Shown: piece after piece, positions 4,930 through 31,872 of the stretch | Numbering within the stretch: position 1 is the stretch's first letter | How the letters are laid out: every line of letters begins with the position of its first letter | Origin: a virus | Reading direction: 5' to 3' (one strand) | IMG/VR virus record: IMGVR_UViG_3300021085_000017 | Coordinates: 1 to 64,000 of that record | Length of the DNA: 64,000 nucleotides | Translations under genes and position numbers: made by a program | The notes under the pieces: model-generated | Seen by the model: only the letters and a program-made list of their open reading frames with translations | What the model was told of the DNA's origin: nothing | Databases searched by the model: none

Positions 4930-6207
4930 TCAAAAAACTTTTATAATCAAACTGTGGTCGTTAAATCTGCCGTTCATTTTGATTTCAACACTGTTTATTT
5001 CATCAAACTGTTTCTGAAATGAACGTTTTGCTATCTTTTTGAACTTTGCTAGTTGTTCGATTGGCTTACGTAGTGTCTTCTGGACGCTCGTGGTTGGGTT
5101 AAAACCTTGAATAGTCGTTCCTTTTACACTTAGACCAGATCCGTCTCTCTTTAGTCCCGTAGGGTCAACATTTTGAGCATGGTATACTCCAAGTTTTCTT
5201 GTCTTAGAATTGTATACTATGATACTATTGGCTCCAACTATTTCTGCTGGGTTCACACTAATTGACTTAGTTTCTGGATGATGGTCTAAATATTTAAACT
5301 TACTGACTTGTTTTTCAGCACTGACTGGCTTCTTCTTACGAGGCTTCCTTGTCACTTTGCCCTTTAATACAATGTTGTCACAAGCATCCATAATAGATTT
5401 GTACATCTTAAACTGATTCTTTATTACACTTTTAGATAGATGTGAATAACCTTCTTTAAGTTGCTCATGCATATCTTTATCAAACTCTGACATACCTTTA
5501 GTACTAGGAGGATTTACAAGTTCTGAGAAATCGTCAAAGGTTGGCTGATATAATGATGCTATTATTTTAGCATGATTTGGTTTTGCGCCAACAATTAAAA
5601 GCATTCGTTGTGGGTCAAAGGTAGTCAACATCGATGAAGAACCATCAAACTCTTCAATATATTCATCTATCTCTTCTGACATTTCTAAAGACTTATTGAA
5701 TAGAAGTTGTTGAATGGATGGTTTATACGTATTAACTTTTTCTTGTTCTTCTTCTTTCTTTTCTTCTTTGATTATCTTGCCAAAAGAAATAACCTCTTCT
5801 ATTTGTCCTTTGACAGAATCAGTAATATCACACAAAGATGTTGCTGTAATACCTTCTAATGTATCTAAGTATTCAGGAATACCAGCATGATTCTCTGGCA
5901 TACCCTTTGATAATGCTCTCACATATCCTGCAAGAGTACTTTTAGTTCTCCAGTCTTCGGCTGCCTTATATGATTTGATATCTTCTTTAGAGTAGCCATT
6001 GTCTTTCATGTATTGGACTACCCAAGGAACAAAATCTTTAGATTTGTAATAGTAACTATAATAATATGGAGTTCTTGCACGTTCTCTATAATATTTTTCT
6101 GCGGTCCAAGTGTCTGAGCCTTTCCAATCAGGCTCTAGTCCTGTAATAGACTCATCTGAAAGAATATTTGCTTTTTTGTTCTTCTTTTTCATTGTTTTTA
6201 TAGCCAC
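4930..6207 (-). CDS. hypothetical phage protein, Lys-rich, early promoter
   Basis: 425-aa ORF with GAGGG RBS and sigma70 promoter at 6250-6278; no family recognised. Confidence 0.7.
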   Translation of the reverse strand: MAIKTMKKKNKKANILSDESITGLEPDWKGSDTWTAEKYYRERARTPYYYSYYYKSKDFVPWVVQYMKDNGYSKEDIKSYKAAEDWRTKSTLAGYVRALSKGMPENHAGIPEYLDTLEGITATSLCDITDSVKGQIEEVISFGKIIKEEKKEEEQEKVNTYKPSIQQLLFNKSLEMSEEIDEYIEEFDGSSSMLTTFDPQRMLLIVGAKPNHAKIIASLYQPTFDDFSELVNPPSTKGMSEFDKDMHEQLKEGYSHLSKSVIKNQFKMYKSIMDACDNIVLKGKVTRKPRKKKPVSAEKQVSKFKYLDHHPETKSISVNPAEIVGANSIIVYNSKTRKLGVYHAQNVDPTGLKRDGSGLSVKGTTIQGFNPTTSVQKTLRKPIEQLAKFKKIAKRSFQKQFDEINSVEIKMNGRFNDHSLIIKVF

Positions 6208-6249
6208 ATTGCCCTCTTCATTTACTTTTATATATCAACATTTAAGAAT

Positions 6250-6278
6250 ACTATACACCGAATGCAGTAGTTTGTCAA
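6250..6278 (-). promoter_or_regulatory. sigma70-type early promoter
   Basis: TTGACA-17-TATAGT. Confidence 0.75.
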
Positions 6279-6286
6279 GTTTTCCG

Positions 6287-6997
6287 TCATTTTTTCTTTT
6301 TTCTTGCAGTTTTTGTATTGTAATCTATTTCTCTGATTCGTTCAATTATGTTGACATCTAGTGCATTCATTAGCAATGCACTTCTAAAATGGTCACTATT
6401 ATTTGGCATAGTACTGTGTAATGTCCTCGAATTATAAATCAAGGCATCGCCCGCTTTTGACACAAATTGAAAACCTTTAGATGTAAGTAAGTCATTATAT
6501 TCTTCTTGGTTGTCTTGTATATCTTGGTAATAAAATCTATCTTTATGTGAACCAGGAAGAATACATGTTGCACCGTTCTCTATTGTGAAGTTGTCTAACG
6601 GAACAATAATTTGTACACCAAATAACTCATCATTTGTTGACCTAGCAAAATCTTCAAATCTATAAGGAGTATCAACATGTGCCCTAATCTTAGACTGTCC
6701 TGGTCTTGTTGTGATTGTATCAACGATATGCATATCCCATTGTTTGCCTTTAAACATTGCGTTTAGAGGACTAGTTAATTTGTCTACTATGGGGTCCCAC
6801 ATTTCTCTTGGTGGCTGTTTACTCCAGCAGATGTTATATTCTCTACCTTTACGATGTTTCCCGTAGTATTCCCCATTTACAGCGTTTCCACGATGTATAT
6901 TCTCTGGGTTCATTGCCCACAATTTGAATTGTCTCACTGCAAATGGTGATAGCAATTCTTTTATTGACAAGTATCCTTGATTTTCATCTATTAACAT
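6287..6997 (-). CDS. phytanoyl-CoA dioxygenase family 2OG-Fe(II) oxygenase
   Basis: HVD facial motif, PLDNFTIENGATCILPGSHK, GDALIY...LHSTMPN...R. Confidence 0.85.
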   Translation of the reverse strand: MLIDENQGYLSIKELLSPFAVRQFKLWAMNPENIHRGNAVNGEYYGKHRKGREYNICWSKQPPREMWDPIVDKLTSPLNAMFKGKQWDMHIVDTITTRPGQSKIRAHVDTPYRFEDFARSTNDELFGVQIIVPLDNFTIENGATCILPGSHKDRFYYQDIQDNQEEYNDLLTSKGFQFVSKAGDALIYNSRTLHSTMPNNSDHFRSALLMNALDVNIIERIREIDYNTKTARKKKK

Positions 6998-28649: not shown

Positions 28650-29498
28650 ATGAACACCAATGAGAACCCATTATCCAAATATTTTCGTAAACCGGGAATA
28701 TATGTACAAATTCCGACTGGTGGCAGATTTAATCCAGAAATAGAAAAAACTGTATTGGACGAGTTACCTATACTTCCGATGACTGCTATTGATGAAATAT
28801 CAATGCAAAATCCTGACGAACTATTAAACGGAGAGGCATTAATAAATCTTATCCGTAGTTGTGTACCATCAATACCTAATCCAAGAAATCTATGTAATAT
28901 CGATGCAGAGATGATATTCTTGGCAATCAAATACGCAACGTATGGTAACGAAGTAGAACATACACACACTTGTTCTGAATGTAGTGAACAAGCAGATTAC
29001 AATATTGACATCAATAGCATATTAGGTAAATTCCCAGAAATTTCTGACATTGAGCCAATAAAATACGAAGACCTTAAAATCTTTGTAACTCCGCCAAAAA
29101 TAGAAAGTCTAACAAGACTTGCACTTATGGAAGTAGAACAGGCTAGAATTCTAAGTAATATGAGTTCTAATAAGATTGAAGGCGAAGAAGACGAGTTGGC
29201 AATGGCAAAAGCATTTGCTACTAGTTTCAGAAAAGTGTCTAAACAAAACGTAGACTTATTAGTAAGTTCTATAGACAGGATTGAAACTCCAGAAAATGTT
29301 ATTTTTGAAAAAGAGATGATTACAGAATTCATGGATAATATACCAGCAGATGTTGTTAAGAAAATAAATGAAACTGTAAACAATGTTTCACCAAATATAA
29401 GTGATATAGCAACATTTGAGTTTACTTGTGAGGCATGTAAACACACAGAGGAAGTCACATTTGACATGAACCCTGTAAATTTTTCCTCCGCTGGTTGA
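28650..29498 (+). CDS. baseplate hub / tail assembly chaperone (T4 gp26-like)
   Basis: NPLSKYFRKP, PMTAIDE, two CxxC pairs (CSEC, CEAC), ends NPVNF. Confidence 0.75.
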   Translation: MNTNENPLSKYFRKPGIYVQIPTGGRFNPEIEKTVLDELPILPMTAIDEISMQNPDELLNGEALINLIRSCVPSIPNPRNLCNIDAEMIFLAIKYATYGNEVEHTHTCSECSEQADYNIDINSILGKFPEISDIEPIKYEDLKIFVTPPKIESLTRLALMEVEQARILSNMSSNKIEGEEDELAMAKAFATSFRKVSKQNVDLLVSSIDRIETPENVIFEKEMITEFMDNIPADVVKKINETVNNVSPNISDIATFEFTCEACKHTEEVTFDMNPVNFSSAG

Positions 29499-29510
29499 AG
29501 ACTGCCAGCG
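29477..29510 (+). other. programmed -1 ribosomal frameshift signal
   Basis: In-frame slippery heptamer A_AAT_TTT (29477-29483), 5-nt spacer, hairpin CGCTGGT/GCCAGCG (29489-29510); the -1 frame is open into the next ORF. Confidence 0.75.
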
Positions 29511-29716
29511 ATACTGACGTAAGAGCGAAACAAGAGTCCTACGAAAAATCACTTGACGCTCTGCACAAATCTTTGTATAAACTTACGTGGTATATGCGTG
29601 GTGGCGTTAGTATATCCGAGTTACATGACATGCCAGCGGGTCACATCCAACACTTAAATGAGATAGTTTCTGAGAACTTTGAGTTAAGTAAACAGGCTGG
29701 AACACCTATTTTATAA
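29495..29716 (+). CDS. small chaperone-like ORF, probably made as a frameshift extension of the upstream gene
   Basis: LTWYMRGGVS motif; TTG start without an RBS; lies in the -1 frame of the upstream gene. Confidence 0.7.
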   Translation: MKTASDTDVRAKQESYEKSLDALHKSLYKLTWYMRGGVSISELHDMPAGHIQHLNEIVSENFELSKQAGTPIL

Positions 29717-29742
29717 AAAATATAAAAAAAGTTACAAAAAAG

Positions 29743-29771
29743 GTTGACATCCCTTTTCCACTATGTTAGTA
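29743..29771 (+). promoter_or_regulatory. sigma70-type promoter driving the long non-coding region
   Basis: TTGACA-17-TAGTAT. Confidence 0.75.
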
Positions 29772-29877
29772 TGGTCACCATAACTAATATAAATCGATAC
29801 AAATCTAATACAAATCCCAAAACCTGATACAAAATCTAAAGATATTAAGGCTAATAATGATTCTAATAAGGCAATAC

Positions 29878-30278
29878 ATAGTGGAACTGTTAGTCGGGCT
29901 GCCGACTCGGGATTGAGGGCGTATATTATACATACGTTCGGACAAGTTGGGTGAACTCCGACACTGCTTCTCGTTAACCACAAGAACTGTTTGTATCGAA
30001 ACATTCGTTACTCTAAAGGTAATTGAATGACTAGTATTTACCGTACAGAAATGTACAAACCGCAGGTAGGTTTCTAAAACACTACCAACTTTGATGATAT
30101 TTTATTCTATGTGGATTATTCAAAGTGCCGTTGGGTCGAAAGACGCAATACTAAGTTACGAGGGAATCGCCAACCGACCTCGCCATTGCTAGTGGCTAAC
30201 TTAGACATAGAATCTGATGAACTTATCAAGTATCTCAGCAGTTGCCCTGTGGATGGGCAATTGTGTCTTCCAAACTAT
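29878..30278 (+). ncRNA. large structured non-coding RNA of unknown class
   Basis: More than 10 hand-found helices, G-U pairs favouring the plus strand, two GAAA tetraloops, a three-way junction, a 9-bp long-range pairing and a terminal closing stem. Confidence 0.7.
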
Positions 30279-30425
30279 CAAGCAGTTATAATCATGGATA
30301 TAATATTGATATATAATTATATGGAAGAAATAAATATCGATGAAATCTTCTTTGAGTGAAACGAAAAGAAATTTCTGAAGATATTAGGTCTTTAGACCTA
30401 TTAAGATATAAACAATGAGATAGCA

Positions 30426-30863
30426 ATGAGTGATTGGACATACAATAATAAAGTTGTAAATGATTTACCTGATAATGTTGAGGGATTTGTATATTTGATT
30501 ACGAATCTTACAAATGACCGAAAATACATAGGTAAGAAGTTAGCAAGATTTAAAACCACTAAACCACCTCTTAAGGGACGTAAGAACAAAAGACGTGGTT
30601 ATAAAGAAAGTGATTGGAGAACCTATTGGGGTTCGTCTGACCATTTGAATGCGGACGTAAAAAAATTAGGTCCCGATAAATTTTCACGTGAAATTCTACA
30701 CTATTGCCCGAGTCGTGGTGCATTAAGTTATGTAGAAGCCAAAGAACAGTTTGACCGTAGAGTGCTTGAAACGGATGAGTACTATAATGGTATTATCAAT
30801 GTACGAGTAGGAAGTTCAAAGATTCTTACTGAGTATCTAAACAGCGTTAAAGAAAAAATATAG
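30426..30863 (+). CDS. GIY-YIG family endonuclease
   Basis: GFVYLITNLTNDRKYIGKK, YWGSS, REIL, YYNG. Confidence 0.85.
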   Translation: MSDWTYNNKVVNDLPDNVEGFVYLITNLTNDRKYIGKKLARFKTTKPPLKGRKNKRRGYKESDWRTYWGSSDHLNADVKKLGPDKFSREILHYCPSRGALSYVEAKEQFDRRVLETDEYYNGIINVRVGSSKILTEYLNSVKEKI

Positions 30864-31098
30864 GCGCTAATATCCACTGATATATTCCTATTACATCAAT
30901 ACATAAGAAAAATATATTTTGTACTATTAAAGGTTTATCTTTTAATATCGCAAAAACGTATATTGCAATCAGATGTCCCGAAGCAAATAATGGAAATGCA
31001 TATTTAGATTGTGGTAGATTCAAAGATATGAGTGTTCCAGCACATACAAACATAAGTGTAGCGAGCCACTTTGTGCGTTCTATTGATTTCGGTGACAT
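30847..31098 (-). CDS. small membrane protein (about 3 TM helices)
   Basis: Three hydrophobic stretches; AGAGGAG RBS; late box at 31122-31127. Confidence 0.75.
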   Translation of the reverse strand: MSPKSIERTKWLATLMFVCAGTLISLNLPQSKYAFPLFASGHLIAIYVFAILKDKPLIVQNIFFLCIDVIGIYQWILAPIFFL

Positions 31099-31130: not shown

Positions 31131-31167
31131 AAAAGAAAAACCCAACATCATTTCTGACATTGGGTTT
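31131..31167 (-). terminator. intrinsic terminator of the sRNA
   Basis: AAACCCAATGTCA-GAAA-TGATGTTGGGTTT followed by TTCTTTT. Confidence 0.8.
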
Positions 31168-31301
31168 CCCGCCTTACATTTCCTTTTTGTGCTTTTTAGA
31201 GTGGTACGTTAAGGTCTAACCCACCCAACCCCTTTGGGCTGAAGCAACAAGTAGTCTATGTCGATGAGAGAGGTTTAGAGGAGACATAGGCACCTGTTGA
31301 T
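31131..31301 (-). ncRNA. stand-alone small RNA (about 170 nt) with CU-rich anti-SD loop
   Basis: Own sigma70 promoter (TTGACA 31336-31331, 17 nt, TACTAT 31313-31308); 5' hairpin with loop UCCUCUAAACCUCUCUCAUC; GAAA-capped terminator; no credible ORF. Confidence 0.75.
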
Positions 31302-31332
31302 TAATATATAGTAACACAAGCACGAATCAATG

Positions 31333-31872
31333 TCAAGCGTTTTTTGATGTTTTTTTAATATTTTTTTTATATTGAATAGGTCCTTGCTCTGGAGAGATAT
31401 AATCTTTAAACTCTTCTAATGCCTGGTTGTATGTTCGGTCAAATATGCTAAATTTTAATACATGTCTTTCTTCTTGCCAAGAGATAATGCTATGTCTTTG
31501 TGTTACATCCAATAACGCACAATGGTAAGTAAAATCGCCCCAATCTTCGAAATTTACTGGTGCATTATCTTCTGATATTAAAATATTTATACAACAAAGT
31601 GTATCTATATCTGCATGTGGAGGCACACTATGATACGCATGTTGTTTATAAAATTTAGCCTTTCCTTTTATTAATTCGTTAATTTTAGACACAAATGGCA
31701 TTTCGTAAGTATCATCAACTTTCGCTTGTTCCCAGTGTGGCGCATGTTTAAAGAACCCCTCCTTTATCGAAGAGTCTGAAAATGGAATAAACGTTGCGTT
31801 ATTCATATCTTCTTTTAACCCATCTCTATCAATAAGATGCTCTAAATTAAGAAATGTTATTGGACGTATCAT
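31333..31872 (-). CDS. putative 2OG-Fe(II)/cupin-fold oxygenase-like protein
   Basis: VPPHAD (HxD), distal H (QRHSI) and ER; weak. Confidence 0.5.
   Translation of the reverse strand: MIRPITFLNLEHLIDRDGLKEDMNNATFIPFSDSSIKEGFFKHAPHWEQAKVDDTYEMPFVSKINELIKGKAKFYKQHAYHSVPPHADIDTLCCINILISEDNAPVNFEDWGDFTYHCALLDVTQRHSIISWQEERHVLKFSIFDRTYNQALEEFKDYISPEQGPIQYKKNIKKTSKNA

What the first reader, a model, noticed from the sequence alone, without database searches (positions are those of the whole stretch)
29743..30863. Large multi-domain structured RNA transcribed directly into a GIY-YIG nuclease gene
Seen: a 700-nt gap in a gene-dense genome starts with a sigma70 promoter (29743-29771) and holds a core that folds by eye into a closed domain. 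The closing stem is AUAGUGGAA(29878-86)/UUCCAAACUAU(30268-78). Internal hairpins include AGUCGG/CCGACU, GGGCGUAU/AUACGUUC, GUUGG/CCGAC, CAUUCGUUAC/GUAAUUGAAUG, GUACA-GAAA-UGUAC (30043-56), GGUAG/CUACC, ACUUUGA/UCAAAGU (30088-126), GUC-GAAA-GAC (30135-44) and CAGUUGCCC/GGGCAAUUG. There is a three-way junction closed by CUAAGUUA/UAACUUAG (30151-204). A perfect 9-bp pairing of the loop AUUCUAUGU (30104-12) with ACAUAGAAU (30205-13) would form a pseudoknot. G-U wobbles and GNRA loops point to a plus-strand RNA. I do not recognise it as tRNA, tmRNA, RNase P, a group I/II intron or a hammerhead. No U-tailed terminator separates it from a compact 145-aa GIY-YIG nuclease. Inference: a possibly undescribed large phage ncRNA, perhaps forming an RNP with the nuclease (by analogy with HEARO/omega RNA and IscB) or acting as a ribozyme or replication primer.
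Basis: partly seen in the sequence, partly recalled or inferred. Interest (0 to 1): 0.9.

Follow-up and report, generated by a model that had tools for sequence, protein, structure and literature searches.

The report
New large knotted RNA, marine phages
The gene-free stretch encodes a real, intricately folded non-coding RNA of about 390 nucleotides that matches no catalogued family and is kept at one spot by a whole group of uncultured marine giant phages. The nuclease gene beside it is a swappable neighbour, not a demonstrated partner, and what the RNA does is still unknown.

Summary
Observation confirmed; interpretation partly supported.

**The RNA.** Window 29877-30265 (+) encodes a pseudoknotted RNA. 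On 70 distinct homologues, 98.3% of cells in 105 proposed pairs are paired, against 33-40% in slid controls. 33 pairs change on both sides, against 2-9 in controls. The loop-to-3' pseudoknot covaries in four versions. G-U pairs fix the plus strand. There is no coding signal, and no Rfam 15, tRNA or tmRNA match.

**Flanks.** Upstream lies a leader with four CUAAUA repeats (spaced 11 nt in relatives). Downstream lies a two-hairpin module.

**Distribution.** The element is single-copy. It follows gp26-orf73 in every phage relative whose gp26 is at least 50% identical. One of these is a complete 342.6-kb genome.

**The nuclease.** The RNP-with-GIY-YIG idea is not supported:
- One clade, including the complete genome, has a PD-(D/E)XK resolvase in that slot and no GIY-YIG.
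- A 79%-identical GIY-YIG sits in phage Melnitz with no RNA.
- On the gp26 tree the nuclease type needs only 1-2 switches.

**Corrections.** The upstream promoter exists in one clade only.

**Best reading.** A stand-alone folded phage RNA of a new family, with a separate leader for the nuclease gene. Function is inferred, not shown. This scan has already reported the same family on other genomes.

The parts
28650..29498 (+). gp26-like baseplate hub gene (context; the upstream anchor of the RNA in every relative)
   Evidence: PF12322 E 3e-19 and phrog_150. Present upstream of the RNA in all loci.
29495..29716 (+). orf73, a conserved 73-aa ORF that abuts gp26 (context)
   Evidence: tblastn shows 59-78% identity in all loci, always contiguous with the gp26 end.
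29744..29772 (+). sigma-70-type promoter TTGACA-17-(TGT)TAGTAT, preceded by an A-tract. Present only in the window's own clade.
   Evidence: 10 of 12 matches with TGn. Conserved in near relatives and absent from L086, L274, L283, L278, L288 and L033-type loci.
29784..29868 (+). A/U-rich leader with four CUAAUA repeats (29784, 29805, 29851, 29863). Relatives have 2-6 copies, some spaced 11 nt.
29877..30265 (+). Core structured RNA, closed by CAUA/UGUG (29877-80/30262-65)
   Evidence: A2 alignment of 70 distinct sequences. 105 pairs are 98.3% paired, and 33 pairs change on both sides.
29881..29981 (+). 5' domain: GUGG/CCAC closes a junction holding hairpin 29892-29907 and helix 29908-12/29969-73, which in turn holds hairpins 29917-39 and 29946-62
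   Evidence: Helices 2-6. Helices 3, 5 and 6 change on both sides. This domain is not alignable in the most divergent member, L288.
30002..30086 (+). Three central hairpins: 30002-29, the GAAA-capped 30043-56 (missing in the PD-(D/E)XK clade) and 30065-86
   Evidence: Helices 8-10, all with compensatory changes.
30088..30213 (+). 3' domain, the most conserved part. It holds hairpin 30088-30126, GAAA hairpin 30130-49 and the three-way junction 30151-30204. The pseudoknot pairs 30104-12 with 30205-13.
   Evidence: Helices 11-17. Covariance model R1 finds it once per genome and in divergent clades.
30214..30261 (+). Variable hairpin region (30214-38, weakly supported) and hairpin AGUUGCC/GGCAAUU (30241-61)
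   Evidence: Helices 18-19. Helix 18 is 85.8% paired with no covariation. Helix 19 is 100% paired with one-sided changes only.
30266..30341 (+). A+T-rich spacer. In the PD-(D/E)XK clade this position carries a perfect TTGACA-17-TATAAT promoter.
   Evidence: GC is 24-27%. L033 5231-5259 matches 12 of 12. Alignments.
30342..30375 (+). Hairpin A of the 3' module: outer stem GAAAU.UUCUUU/AAAGAAAUUUC around a small capped tip
   Evidence: The same hairpin is predicted in 37 of 38 distinct versions with unrelated outer-stem sequences.
30385..30400 (+). Hairpin B: UAGGUC-UUUA-GACCUA, 25 nt before the start codon. It is nearly invariant and scores as terminator-like where a U-tail follows.
   Evidence: L288 has UUGGUC/GACCAA, a compensatory change. 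L033 5319-5332 scores as terminator-like.
30426..30863 (+). 145-aa SegE-type GIY-YIG nuclease gene. It occupies a slot that holds a PD-(D/E)XK resolvase in another clade.
   Evidence: PF19835 E 1.5e-35 over residues 4-124. 79-97% identical in GIY-type loci. Slot comparison.

Best explanation
**What it is.** The gap holds a gene for a new family of large, pseudoknotted non-coding RNA. The core is about 390 nt, 29877-30265, plus strand. It is a single-copy, vertically inherited part of the genome of a clade of uncultured marine T4-like phages, at least some of them jumbo. It always lies right after the baseplate-hub gene gp26 and orf73.

**How it is made.** Host RNA polymerase transcribes it. 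In the window's clade it uses its own strong promoter. In other clades it most likely reads through from gp26-orf73.

**How it most likely works (inferred).** The core folds into a closed, multi-junction body and acts on its own as a folded RNA. It could be a protein-binding scaffold or an RNA-only assembly of the GOLLD/ROOL kind. The phased single-stranded CUAAUA repeats in its leader would serve as a landing pad for a protein or as processing sites.

**The 3' module (inferred).** The two hairpins (30342-30400) are a separable leader of whatever gene follows. They probably throttle expression of a potentially toxic nuclease.

**The nuclease.** The GIY-YIG gene is not a partner of the RNA. It is a non-orthologous replacement of an ancestral PD-(D/E)XK junction resolvase in that slot.

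**Shown versus inferred.**
- Shown: the RNA fold, its strand, its conservation, its synteny and the swap of nucleases.
- Inferred: trans action, the role of the repeats and the attenuator role of the 3' module.
For: **Fold.**
- RNAalifold on 30 sequences gives 85 pairs, 26 with double compensatory change.
- On 70 distinct sequences, 98.3% of cells are paired against 33-40% when the partner is slid. 33 pairs change on both sides against 2-9 in controls. 0 of 500 shuffles reach the observed values on four of five measures, and 2 of 500 on the fifth.
- The pseudoknot covaries in four sequence versions.

**Strand.** Many conserved G-U pairs exist only on the plus strand. MFE z is -2.96 (plus) against -1.21 (minus).

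**Not coding.** Variable sites show no 3-periodicity (76/85/80), indels are mostly not multiples of 3, and no ORF is conserved.

**Not a known family.** No Rfam match at gathering score or at E<=10 for the window. No match at E<=1 for five divergent members. No tRNA or tmRNA.

**Conservation and synteny.**
- 65 IMG/VR contigs and 82 true metagenome contigs carry it.
- It is present in every gp26 relative of at least 50% identity that had enough downstream sequence, and undetected in relatives at 30-35%.
- There is one copy per genome, including a complete 342,607-bp genome with terminal repeats.

**Independence from GIY-YIG.**
- The PD-(D/E)XK clade.
- Complete genome G001 has no GIY-YIG.
- Melnitz has a 79%-identical GIY-YIG with no upstream gap and no R1 match.
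- The gp26 tree needs only 1-2 switches for 49 GIY and 16 PD-(D/E)XK loci.
- The resolvase homologue lies near gp26 in Phosso (42% identity) and PA5oct (46% identity).

**Separability of the 3' module.**
- A perfect promoter lies between core and module in the PD-(D/E)XK clade.
- The module precedes GIY-YIG, PD-(D/E)XK, a radical SAM gene (L126) or a 219-aa ORF (L288).
- Hairpin A keeps its shape with unrelated stems.
Against: - I obtained no direct evidence of a discrete stable transcript.
- The RNA is followed on the same strand, without a strong terminator, by a nuclease gene in all 65 classifiable loci. Some functional coupling with that slot therefore cannot be excluded.
- Nothing measured bears on protein binding, oligomerisation or catalysis.
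- 'Scaffold' is a generic reading.
- The 5' domain is not conserved in the most divergent member, L288. The functional unit may therefore be only the 3' domain.
Confidence: 0.55

Rival explanations
1. **Long cis-acting leader.** The whole element (core plus 3' hairpins) is one regulatory 5' UTR. It senses a signal or a protein and gates transcription or translation of the downstream nuclease or resolvase gene.
For: - The element lies on the same strand as the following gene, with no plus-strand terminator in between.
- Hairpin B is terminator-like where a U-tail follows.
- The slot downstream holds a small nuclease in 65 of 65 classifiable loci, even after a non-orthologous swap. This fits a conserved control region for a dangerous gene.
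Against: - In the PD-(D/E)XK clade a 12-of-12 sigma-70 promoter lies between the core and the hairpin module. There the nuclease leader can be made without the core.
- In L288 and L126 other genes follow the module.
- A core of about 390 nt with 19 helices and a pseudoknot is far larger than known bacterial leaders.
- In most clades the core looks like the 3' end of the gp26-orf73 transcript.
Confidence: 0.15
2. **Replication-origin transcript.** The locus is an origin of the T4 oriE/oriF or ColE1 kind. An early transcript folds, forms an R-loop in the A+T-rich tract after the core and primes DNA synthesis. The phased CTAATA repeats act as iterons.
For: - An early-type promoter sits inside a late baseplate cluster.
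- CTAATA repeats are evenly spaced at 11 nt in relatives.
- A 24-27% GC tract follows the core.
- Neighbours are recombination and replication nucleases: resolvase, gp46 in relatives, and RNase HI beside the Phosso gap.
- In complete genome G001 the RNA lies 7 kb from a local minimum of cumulative G-C and from a switch in gene orientation.
- T4 oriE has evenly spaced 12-nt repeats and depends on an early promoter. T4 origins lie near transcription switches. oriF/oriG use promoter plus an A+T-rich unwinding element and RNase H (PMC3016281).
Against: - The promoter is not conserved in position.
- T4 R-loop formation needs no specific sequence (PMC3016281). Here unpaired nucleotides, a pseudoknot and a three-way junction are under strict selection.
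- GC skew follows gene orientation, and its minimum is not at the locus.
- No initiator gene was identified.
Confidence: 0.12
3. **RNA-nuclease particle.** The RNA binds the small nuclease encoded downstream and guides or activates it, as omega RNA does for IscB.
For: - The RNA is always next to a small nuclease gene that has little beyond a catalytic domain. The Pfam match covers residues 4-124 of 145.
- Adjacency holds in 65 of 65 loci.
Against: - Two unrelated nuclease folds occupy the slot.
- Complete genome G001 has the RNA but no GIY-YIG.
- Melnitz has the GIY-YIG at 79% identity but no RNA.
- Other genes are inserted between RNA and nuclease in L126 and L288.
- No hypervariable guide-like stretch exists.
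- No match to HEARO or any omega RNA model.
Confidence: 0.05
4. **Not an RNA gene.** The conservation reflects a small protein gene, DNA-level repeats, or gene conversion around a homing endonuclease.
For: - An 82-aa ORF (30111-30359) exists in the window.
- The intergenic DNA is 82-87% identical while gp26 is only 67-79% identical at protein level. Co-conversion next to a mobile nuclease could mimic this.
Against: - No conserved ORF, no codon periodicity, and indels out of frame.
- 33 pairs have compensatory double changes, and slid controls are far lower.
- The fold is kept in clades that lack the GIY-YIG.
Confidence: 0.01

Closest known systems
GOLLD (RF01998) and ROOL (RF03087), large ornate RNAs often carried by phages and prophages (PMC12286853)
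   Same: - A large (several hundred nt), multi-junction, pseudoknotted non-coding RNA.
- Carried by phages, with no known function.
- Strongly conserved unpaired nucleotides point to tertiary structure.
   Different: - No sequence or structure match to either Rfam model.
- Not next to tRNA genes.
- Fixed at one syntenic site in marine T4-like phages.
- Smaller than both.
- Homo-oligomer formation, their defining structural trait, was not tested.
HEARO / omega RNA with IscB
   Same: A structured RNA lies directly beside a small nuclease gene on the same strand.
   Different: - The nuclease is GIY-YIG or PD-(D/E)XK, not RuvC/HNH.
- RNA and nuclease occur without each other in relatives.
- No guide-like variable segment.
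- No Rfam match.
T4 Seg-type free-standing GIY-YIG endonucleases (SegE family, PF19835)
   Same: The 145-aa protein matches the SegE GIY-YIG domain (E 1.5e-35). A 79%-identical copy sits in a different context, beside nrd genes, in phage Melnitz.
   Different: - It is clade-fixed, not sporadic: 49 of 49 classifiable loci in two clades.
- It is 79-97% conserved.
- Only about 20 residues lie beyond the catalytic domain.
- It sits exactly where relatives carry a junction resolvase. This suggests a domesticated replacement and not a selfish homing gene.
T4 oriE / oriF origins and ColE1 RNA II primer
   Same: - An early promoter sits inside a late gene cluster.
- Repeats are evenly spaced.
- An A+T-rich tract lies downstream.
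- The locus is near a transcription-orientation switch.
- For ColE1, a primer transcript of about 550 nt whose fold matters (PMC3016281).
   Different: - T4 R-loops need no specific RNA structure.
- The promoter position is not conserved here.
- No origin activity or initiator is known.

Membership tests
HEARO / IscB omega RNA | Match to the Rfam HEARO covariance model | tested here: not met
   No hit at gathering score over the whole window. None at E<=10 in 29600-31000.
HEARO / IscB omega RNA | Obligate linkage of the RNA with its nuclease gene across relatives | tested here: not met
   - The PD-(D/E)XK clade lacks GIY-YIG, including complete genome G001.
- Melnitz has the GIY-YIG without the RNA.
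HEARO / IscB omega RNA | A hypervariable guide segment at one end of a conserved scaffold | tested here: not met
   In the 70-sequence alignment, variation lies in hairpin tips and covarying stems. The leader varies by indels between conserved CUAAUA repeats.
GOLLD / ROOL | Match to RF01998 or RF03087 | tested here: not met
GOLLD / ROOL | Frequent adjacency to tRNA genes in phages or prophages | tested here: not met
   No tRNA in the 64-kb window. In G001 the nearest tRNA is more than 50 kb from the RNA.
GOLLD / ROOL | RNA-only homo-oligomeric assembly | not testable with these tools
   Needs SEC-MALS or cryo-EM of the transcript.
Group I intron | Match to the Rfam model, and interruption of a host gene with flanking exons | tested here: not met
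   No Rfam hit. The upstream ORF ends at a stop codon, and a promoter or repeat leader follows.
tmRNA / RNase P RNA | Detection by ARAGORN or Rfam models | tested here: not met
   Relative G001 carries a separate permuted tmRNA elsewhere.
   No hit at E<=10 in the window region. None at E<=1 in five divergent members.
SegE-type GIY-YIG nuclease (for the downstream gene) | GIY-YIG catalytic domain of the SegE type | tested here: met
   PF19835 E 1.5e-35 over residues 4-124. phrog_447 E 4e-37.
SegE-type GIY-YIG nuclease (for the downstream gene) | Sporadic, mobile distribution typical of free-standing homing endonucleases | tested here: inconclusive
   A 79% copy lies in unrelated phage Melnitz in another context. 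Within this lineage it is clade-fixed, with only 1-2 switches on the gp26 tree.
R-loop / primer-RNA replication origin (T4 oriE/oriF, ColE1) | Promoter, repeats and A+T-rich unwinding element at a compositional-skew switch | tested here: inconclusive
   - Promoter in one clade only.
- 11-nt phased repeats.
- An A+T tract.
- The skew minimum lies 7 kb away in G001.
R-loop / primer-RNA replication origin (T4 oriE/oriF, ColE1) | Initiation of DNA synthesis from the transcript | not testable with these tools
   Needs an infected culture and nascent-strand or marker-frequency mapping.

The most novel reading that the evidence does not exclude
The RNA, or its invariant 3' domain with the pseudoknot and three-way junction, is a catalytic or assembly-forming RNA that works in phage DNA replication or recombination together with whichever small junction nuclease is encoded downstream. 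One version would be a structured primer or R-loop RNA whose hybrid or branch is processed by the GIY-YIG or PD-(D/E)XK enzyme. That would be a new RNA-dependent step in jumbo-phage DNA metabolism.
Probability: 0.1. Interest if true: 0.92.

Novelty: new variant of a known kind. Interest (0 to 1): 0.78.

Why it matters
Large, intricately folded non-coding RNAs are rare. Each new class (RNase P, group I/II introns, OLE, GOLLD, ROOL) has taught new RNA biology.

This one has several features that make it worth study:
- It is abundant in ocean metagenomes.
- It is a fixed, single-copy component of a whole lineage of uncultured marine giant phages.
- Its pseudoknotted core is well defined and has enough natural variation for structure work.
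- It sits at the border between the baseplate genes and the recombination genes.

Knowing what it does would open a new aspect of jumbo-phage biology.

The finding also gives a clean example of a nuclease gene being swapped for an unrelated one behind a conserved RNA leader. That is a caution against reading 'RNA next to nuclease' as an RNA-guided system.

Tried and rejected
- **Rfam.** Gathering and permissive searches on the window and on five divergent members found nothing relevant. The only near-threshold hit, the patAB leader (28 bits against a cut-off of 92), lies on the minus strand over the promoter A-tract and is chance.
- **ARAGORN.** No tRNA or tmRNA.
- **blastn against cultured phages.** No match.
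- **Covariance model R1 on cultured relatives.** Searches of the gp26 or resolvase regions of Phosso, Atu_ph07, PA5oct and Melnitz gave only chance-level hits.
- **PA5oct.** Its gene-poor 1.5 kb between gp26 and the resolvase is not significantly structured. It is not among the four ncRNAs reported from RNA-seq (PMC7318152).
- **Sequencing runs.** Earlier notes of this scan report RNA reads for the family on other genomes; I did not verify this.
- **Chance pattern matches.** Metagenome loci L197 and L238 were inspected and discarded.
- **Protein-coding reading.** Rejected.
The outer four pairs are rejected.
- **Origin test by GC skew.** Inconclusive on complete relative G001.
Not confirmed.
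- **Self-complementary loop for dimerisation.** I considered CUAG in the 30182-96 hairpin and dropped it, because divergent members have CUGG.
Full report
**1. What is in the window.**

The stretch 29717-30425 has no credible gene. It lies between a gp26-like baseplate hub gene (28650-29498, PF12322) with an abutting 73-aa ORF (29495-29716), and a 145-aa SegE-type GIY-YIG nuclease gene (30426-30863, PF19835 E 1.5e-35).

- A sigma-70-type promoter, TTGACA-17-TAGTAT with a TGn extension, lies at 29744-29772. No plus-strand terminator-like site lies between it and the nuclease gene.
- GC reaches 43-47% in parts of the core, against about 27% in the flanks.
- The plus strand folds better than shuffles (z -2.96). 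The minus strand does not (z -1.21).
- Rfam 15 gives no hit at gathering score in the whole window and nothing meaningful at E<=10 in the region. ARAGORN finds no tRNA or tmRNA.

**2. Relatives.**

The window is a 92-kb IMG/VR contig of an uncultured phage.

- Scanning viral contigs with gp26 gave 22 full loci. All carried the intergenic DNA at 82-87% nucleotide identity, although gp26 is only 67-79% identical as protein.
- Two invariant RNA segments used as a DNA pattern retrieved 65 viral contigs and 84 metagenome contigs. Two of the metagenome contigs were chance matches. The metagenome records include Tara Oceans scaffolds and ENA marine-metagenome assemblies.
- A gp26 profile scan added more distant phages. 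Covariance model R1, built on the 3' domain, found the RNA in every gp26 relative of at least 50% identity that had enough downstream sequence. It found none at 30-35% identity.
- R1 finds exactly one copy in the window's contig, in a 160-kb contig, and in a complete 342,607-bp genome with terminal repeats, G001.
- At least that clade is therefore jumbo. G001 also carries 10 tRNAs and its own permuted tmRNA.

**3. The fold.**

- RNAalifold on 30 sequences predicted 85 pairs, 26 of them with double compensatory changes.
- I added the GAAA-capped hairpin, two small helices and the pseudoknot, and counted 105 pairs in 19 helices on 70 distinct sequences.
- 98.3% of cells are paired, against 33-40% when the 3' partners are slid by 1-3 columns.
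- 33 pairs change on both sides, against 2-9 in slid controls.
- The covariation score is 0.193, against 0.02-0.04 in slid controls.
- 0 of 500 shuffles reach the observed values on four of five measures, and 2 of 500 on the fifth.
- Many positions are conserved G-U pairs. These would be C-A on the other strand, so the RNA is plus-strand.

The pseudoknot between the loop of hairpin 30088-30126 and 30205-30213 is nearly invariant among close relatives. It covaries in the divergent ones:
- UCUAUGU/ACAUAGA (window)
- CUGUGU/ACACAG (L086, L274)
- UCUGUUU/AAACAGA (L282, L283, L278, L279)
- UCUUGUC/GACGAGA (L288)

The three-way-junction helix CUAAGUUA/UAACUUAG is invariant among close relatives and shows an A-U to G-C change in the same divergent members.

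UGGAA/UUCCA mostly pairs but never covaries, and AUAG/CUAU pairs in only 12 of 70 sequences. The comparative fold instead closes the 5' domain with GUGG/CCAC and the core with CAUA/UGUG (29877-80/30262-65). These too are almost invariant, so the closure remains the least certain part.

There is no coding signal:
- Variable sites fall 76/85/80 over the three phases.
- Indels are mostly not multiples of three.
- No ORF is conserved.

**4. Flanking parts.**

*Leader.* It carries four CUAAUA repeats within 85 nt (29784, 29805, 29851, 29863). The background is about one per kb over both strands. Relatives have 2-6 copies, several at exact 11-nt spacing.

*Promoter.* It is a feature of the window's clade only. 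In all other clades the repeats begin right after the orf73 stop codon.

*3' module.* Downstream of the core come an A+T-rich spacer and a two-hairpin module.
- Hairpin A (30342-30375) keeps the same shape in 37 of 38 distinct versions, with unrelated outer stems.
- Hairpin B (30385-30400, UAGGUC-UUUA-GACCUA) is invariant except in L288, where one pair is swapped compensatorily.
- In the PD-(D/E)XK clade a perfect TTGACA-17-TATAAT promoter lies between the core and this module. Hairpin B there is followed by a U-tract and scores as terminator-like.

The module therefore behaves as the leader of the downstream gene and is separable from the core.

**5. The nuclease.**

The GIY-YIG gene follows the RNA in the window's clade and in two further clades (79-97% identity).

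In another clade the slot holds a protein of about 176-180 aa that matches PF24608 (phage PD-(D/E)XK endonuclease, E 4e-26). That protein is:
- 42% identical to the annotated Holliday junction resolvase of Sinorhizobium phage Phosso;
- 46% identical to gp342 of Pseudomonas phage PA5oct.

Both of those genes lie a few kb downstream of the gp26 homologue.

Further evidence on linkage:
- Complete genome G001 has the RNA and the PD-(D/E)XK gene but no GIY-YIG.
- The window's contig has no PD-(D/E)XK homologue.
- The closest cultured GIY-YIG homologue (79% identity, Methylophilales phage Melnitz) sits beside ribonucleotide reductase genes. It has no upstream gap and no RNA.
- In L126 a radical SAM gene lies between RNA and nuclease. 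In L288 two other ORFs do.
- On a quick maximum-likelihood gp26 tree, 49 GIY-type and 16 PD-(D/E)XK-type loci need only one or two switches.

The simplest reading is a non-orthologous replacement of an ancestral junction resolvase by a SegE-like nuclease behind a conserved leader. It is not an RNA-nuclease partnership.

**6. What it most likely does.**

*Shown:* a complex, closed, pseudoknotted fold with many invariant unpaired nucleotides; single copy; vertical inheritance with core genes.

*Inferred (confidence about 0.55):* it acts as a stand-alone folded RNA, a protein scaffold or an RNA-only assembly like GOLLD/ROOL (PMC12286853). The CUAAUA repeats would be a protein landing or processing site, and the 3' hairpins a leader that limits nuclease expression.

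*Rivals:*
- One long cis-regulatory leader (0.15). This is weakened by the promoter between core and module in one clade.
- An origin or primer transcript (0.12). T4 oriE has evenly spaced repeats and depends on an early promoter. T4 origins lie at orientation switches. oriF/oriG use promoter plus an A+T element and RNase H (PMC3016281). Here the repeats, the A+T tract and the replication and recombination neighbours fit. The G-C skew minimum in G001 is 7 kb away, and T4 R-loops need no specific fold.
- An RNA-nuclease particle (0.05).

**7. Known or new.**

Literature searches for large phage RNAs returned only GOLLD/ROOL work and nothing on this element.

Earlier notes of this same scan describe the same RNA family on other genomes and reached similar conclusions. 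Those are not publications.

I class it as a new RNA family of the known kind 'large ornate phage-borne RNA of unknown function'.

Noticed in passing
L254 6230-7243 (Sinorhizobium phage Phosso, PV764938.1): An unannotated gap of about 1 kb lies directly upstream of the Holliday junction resolvase gene, which is 42% identical to the PD-(D/E)XK protein that follows the RNA in marine relatives. It lies next to RNase HI and about 2.4 kb from the gp26 homologue. It is GC-rich with many hairpins. MFE z is -3.8 (plus) and -5.95 (minus). There is no Rfam or R1 match. It may be an analogous large RNA in a cultured jumbo phage.
   Followed up: partly
window 29477-29716; also every related locus: The tblastn matches of gp26 and orf73 meet at the same coordinate in all relatives. 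orf73 has only a TTG start. I did not test it.
   Followed up: no
window 31135-31336, minus strand: A TTGACA-17-TACTAT promoter with TGn (31336-31308) and a 16-pair terminator (31170-31135) bracket about 130-170 nt with no ORF.
   Followed up: no
G001 (L341-L358), 281184-281530: The complete 342,607-bp relative encodes 10 tRNAs and a permuted tmRNA with tag ANDNYQPEMAMAA. From my own knowledge, permuted tmRNAs and ANDN-type tags are typical of Alphaproteobacteria. This hints at the host.
   Followed up: no
L126 (reverse strand, 5209-6417): A 402-aa radical SAM protein gene (PF04055) is inserted between the RNA's 3' hairpin module and the GIY-YIG gene in one lineage.
   Followed up: partly
L257 2479-3991 (Pseudomonas phage PA5oct): The gp26 homologue and the PD-(D/E)XK 'RusA-like resolvase' are separated by about 1.5 kb holding only four annotated ORFs of 38-50 aa. 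The region is not significantly structured. It is not among the published PA5oct ncRNAs.
   Followed up: partly
L197 6040-6440 (406-kb metagenome contig Ga0213830_1000025): A chance pattern match revealed an array of repeats of the form GATC...TTTTACTAACTTA, spaced about 50-60 nt apart. It is unrelated to the RNA and unexplained.
   Followed up: no
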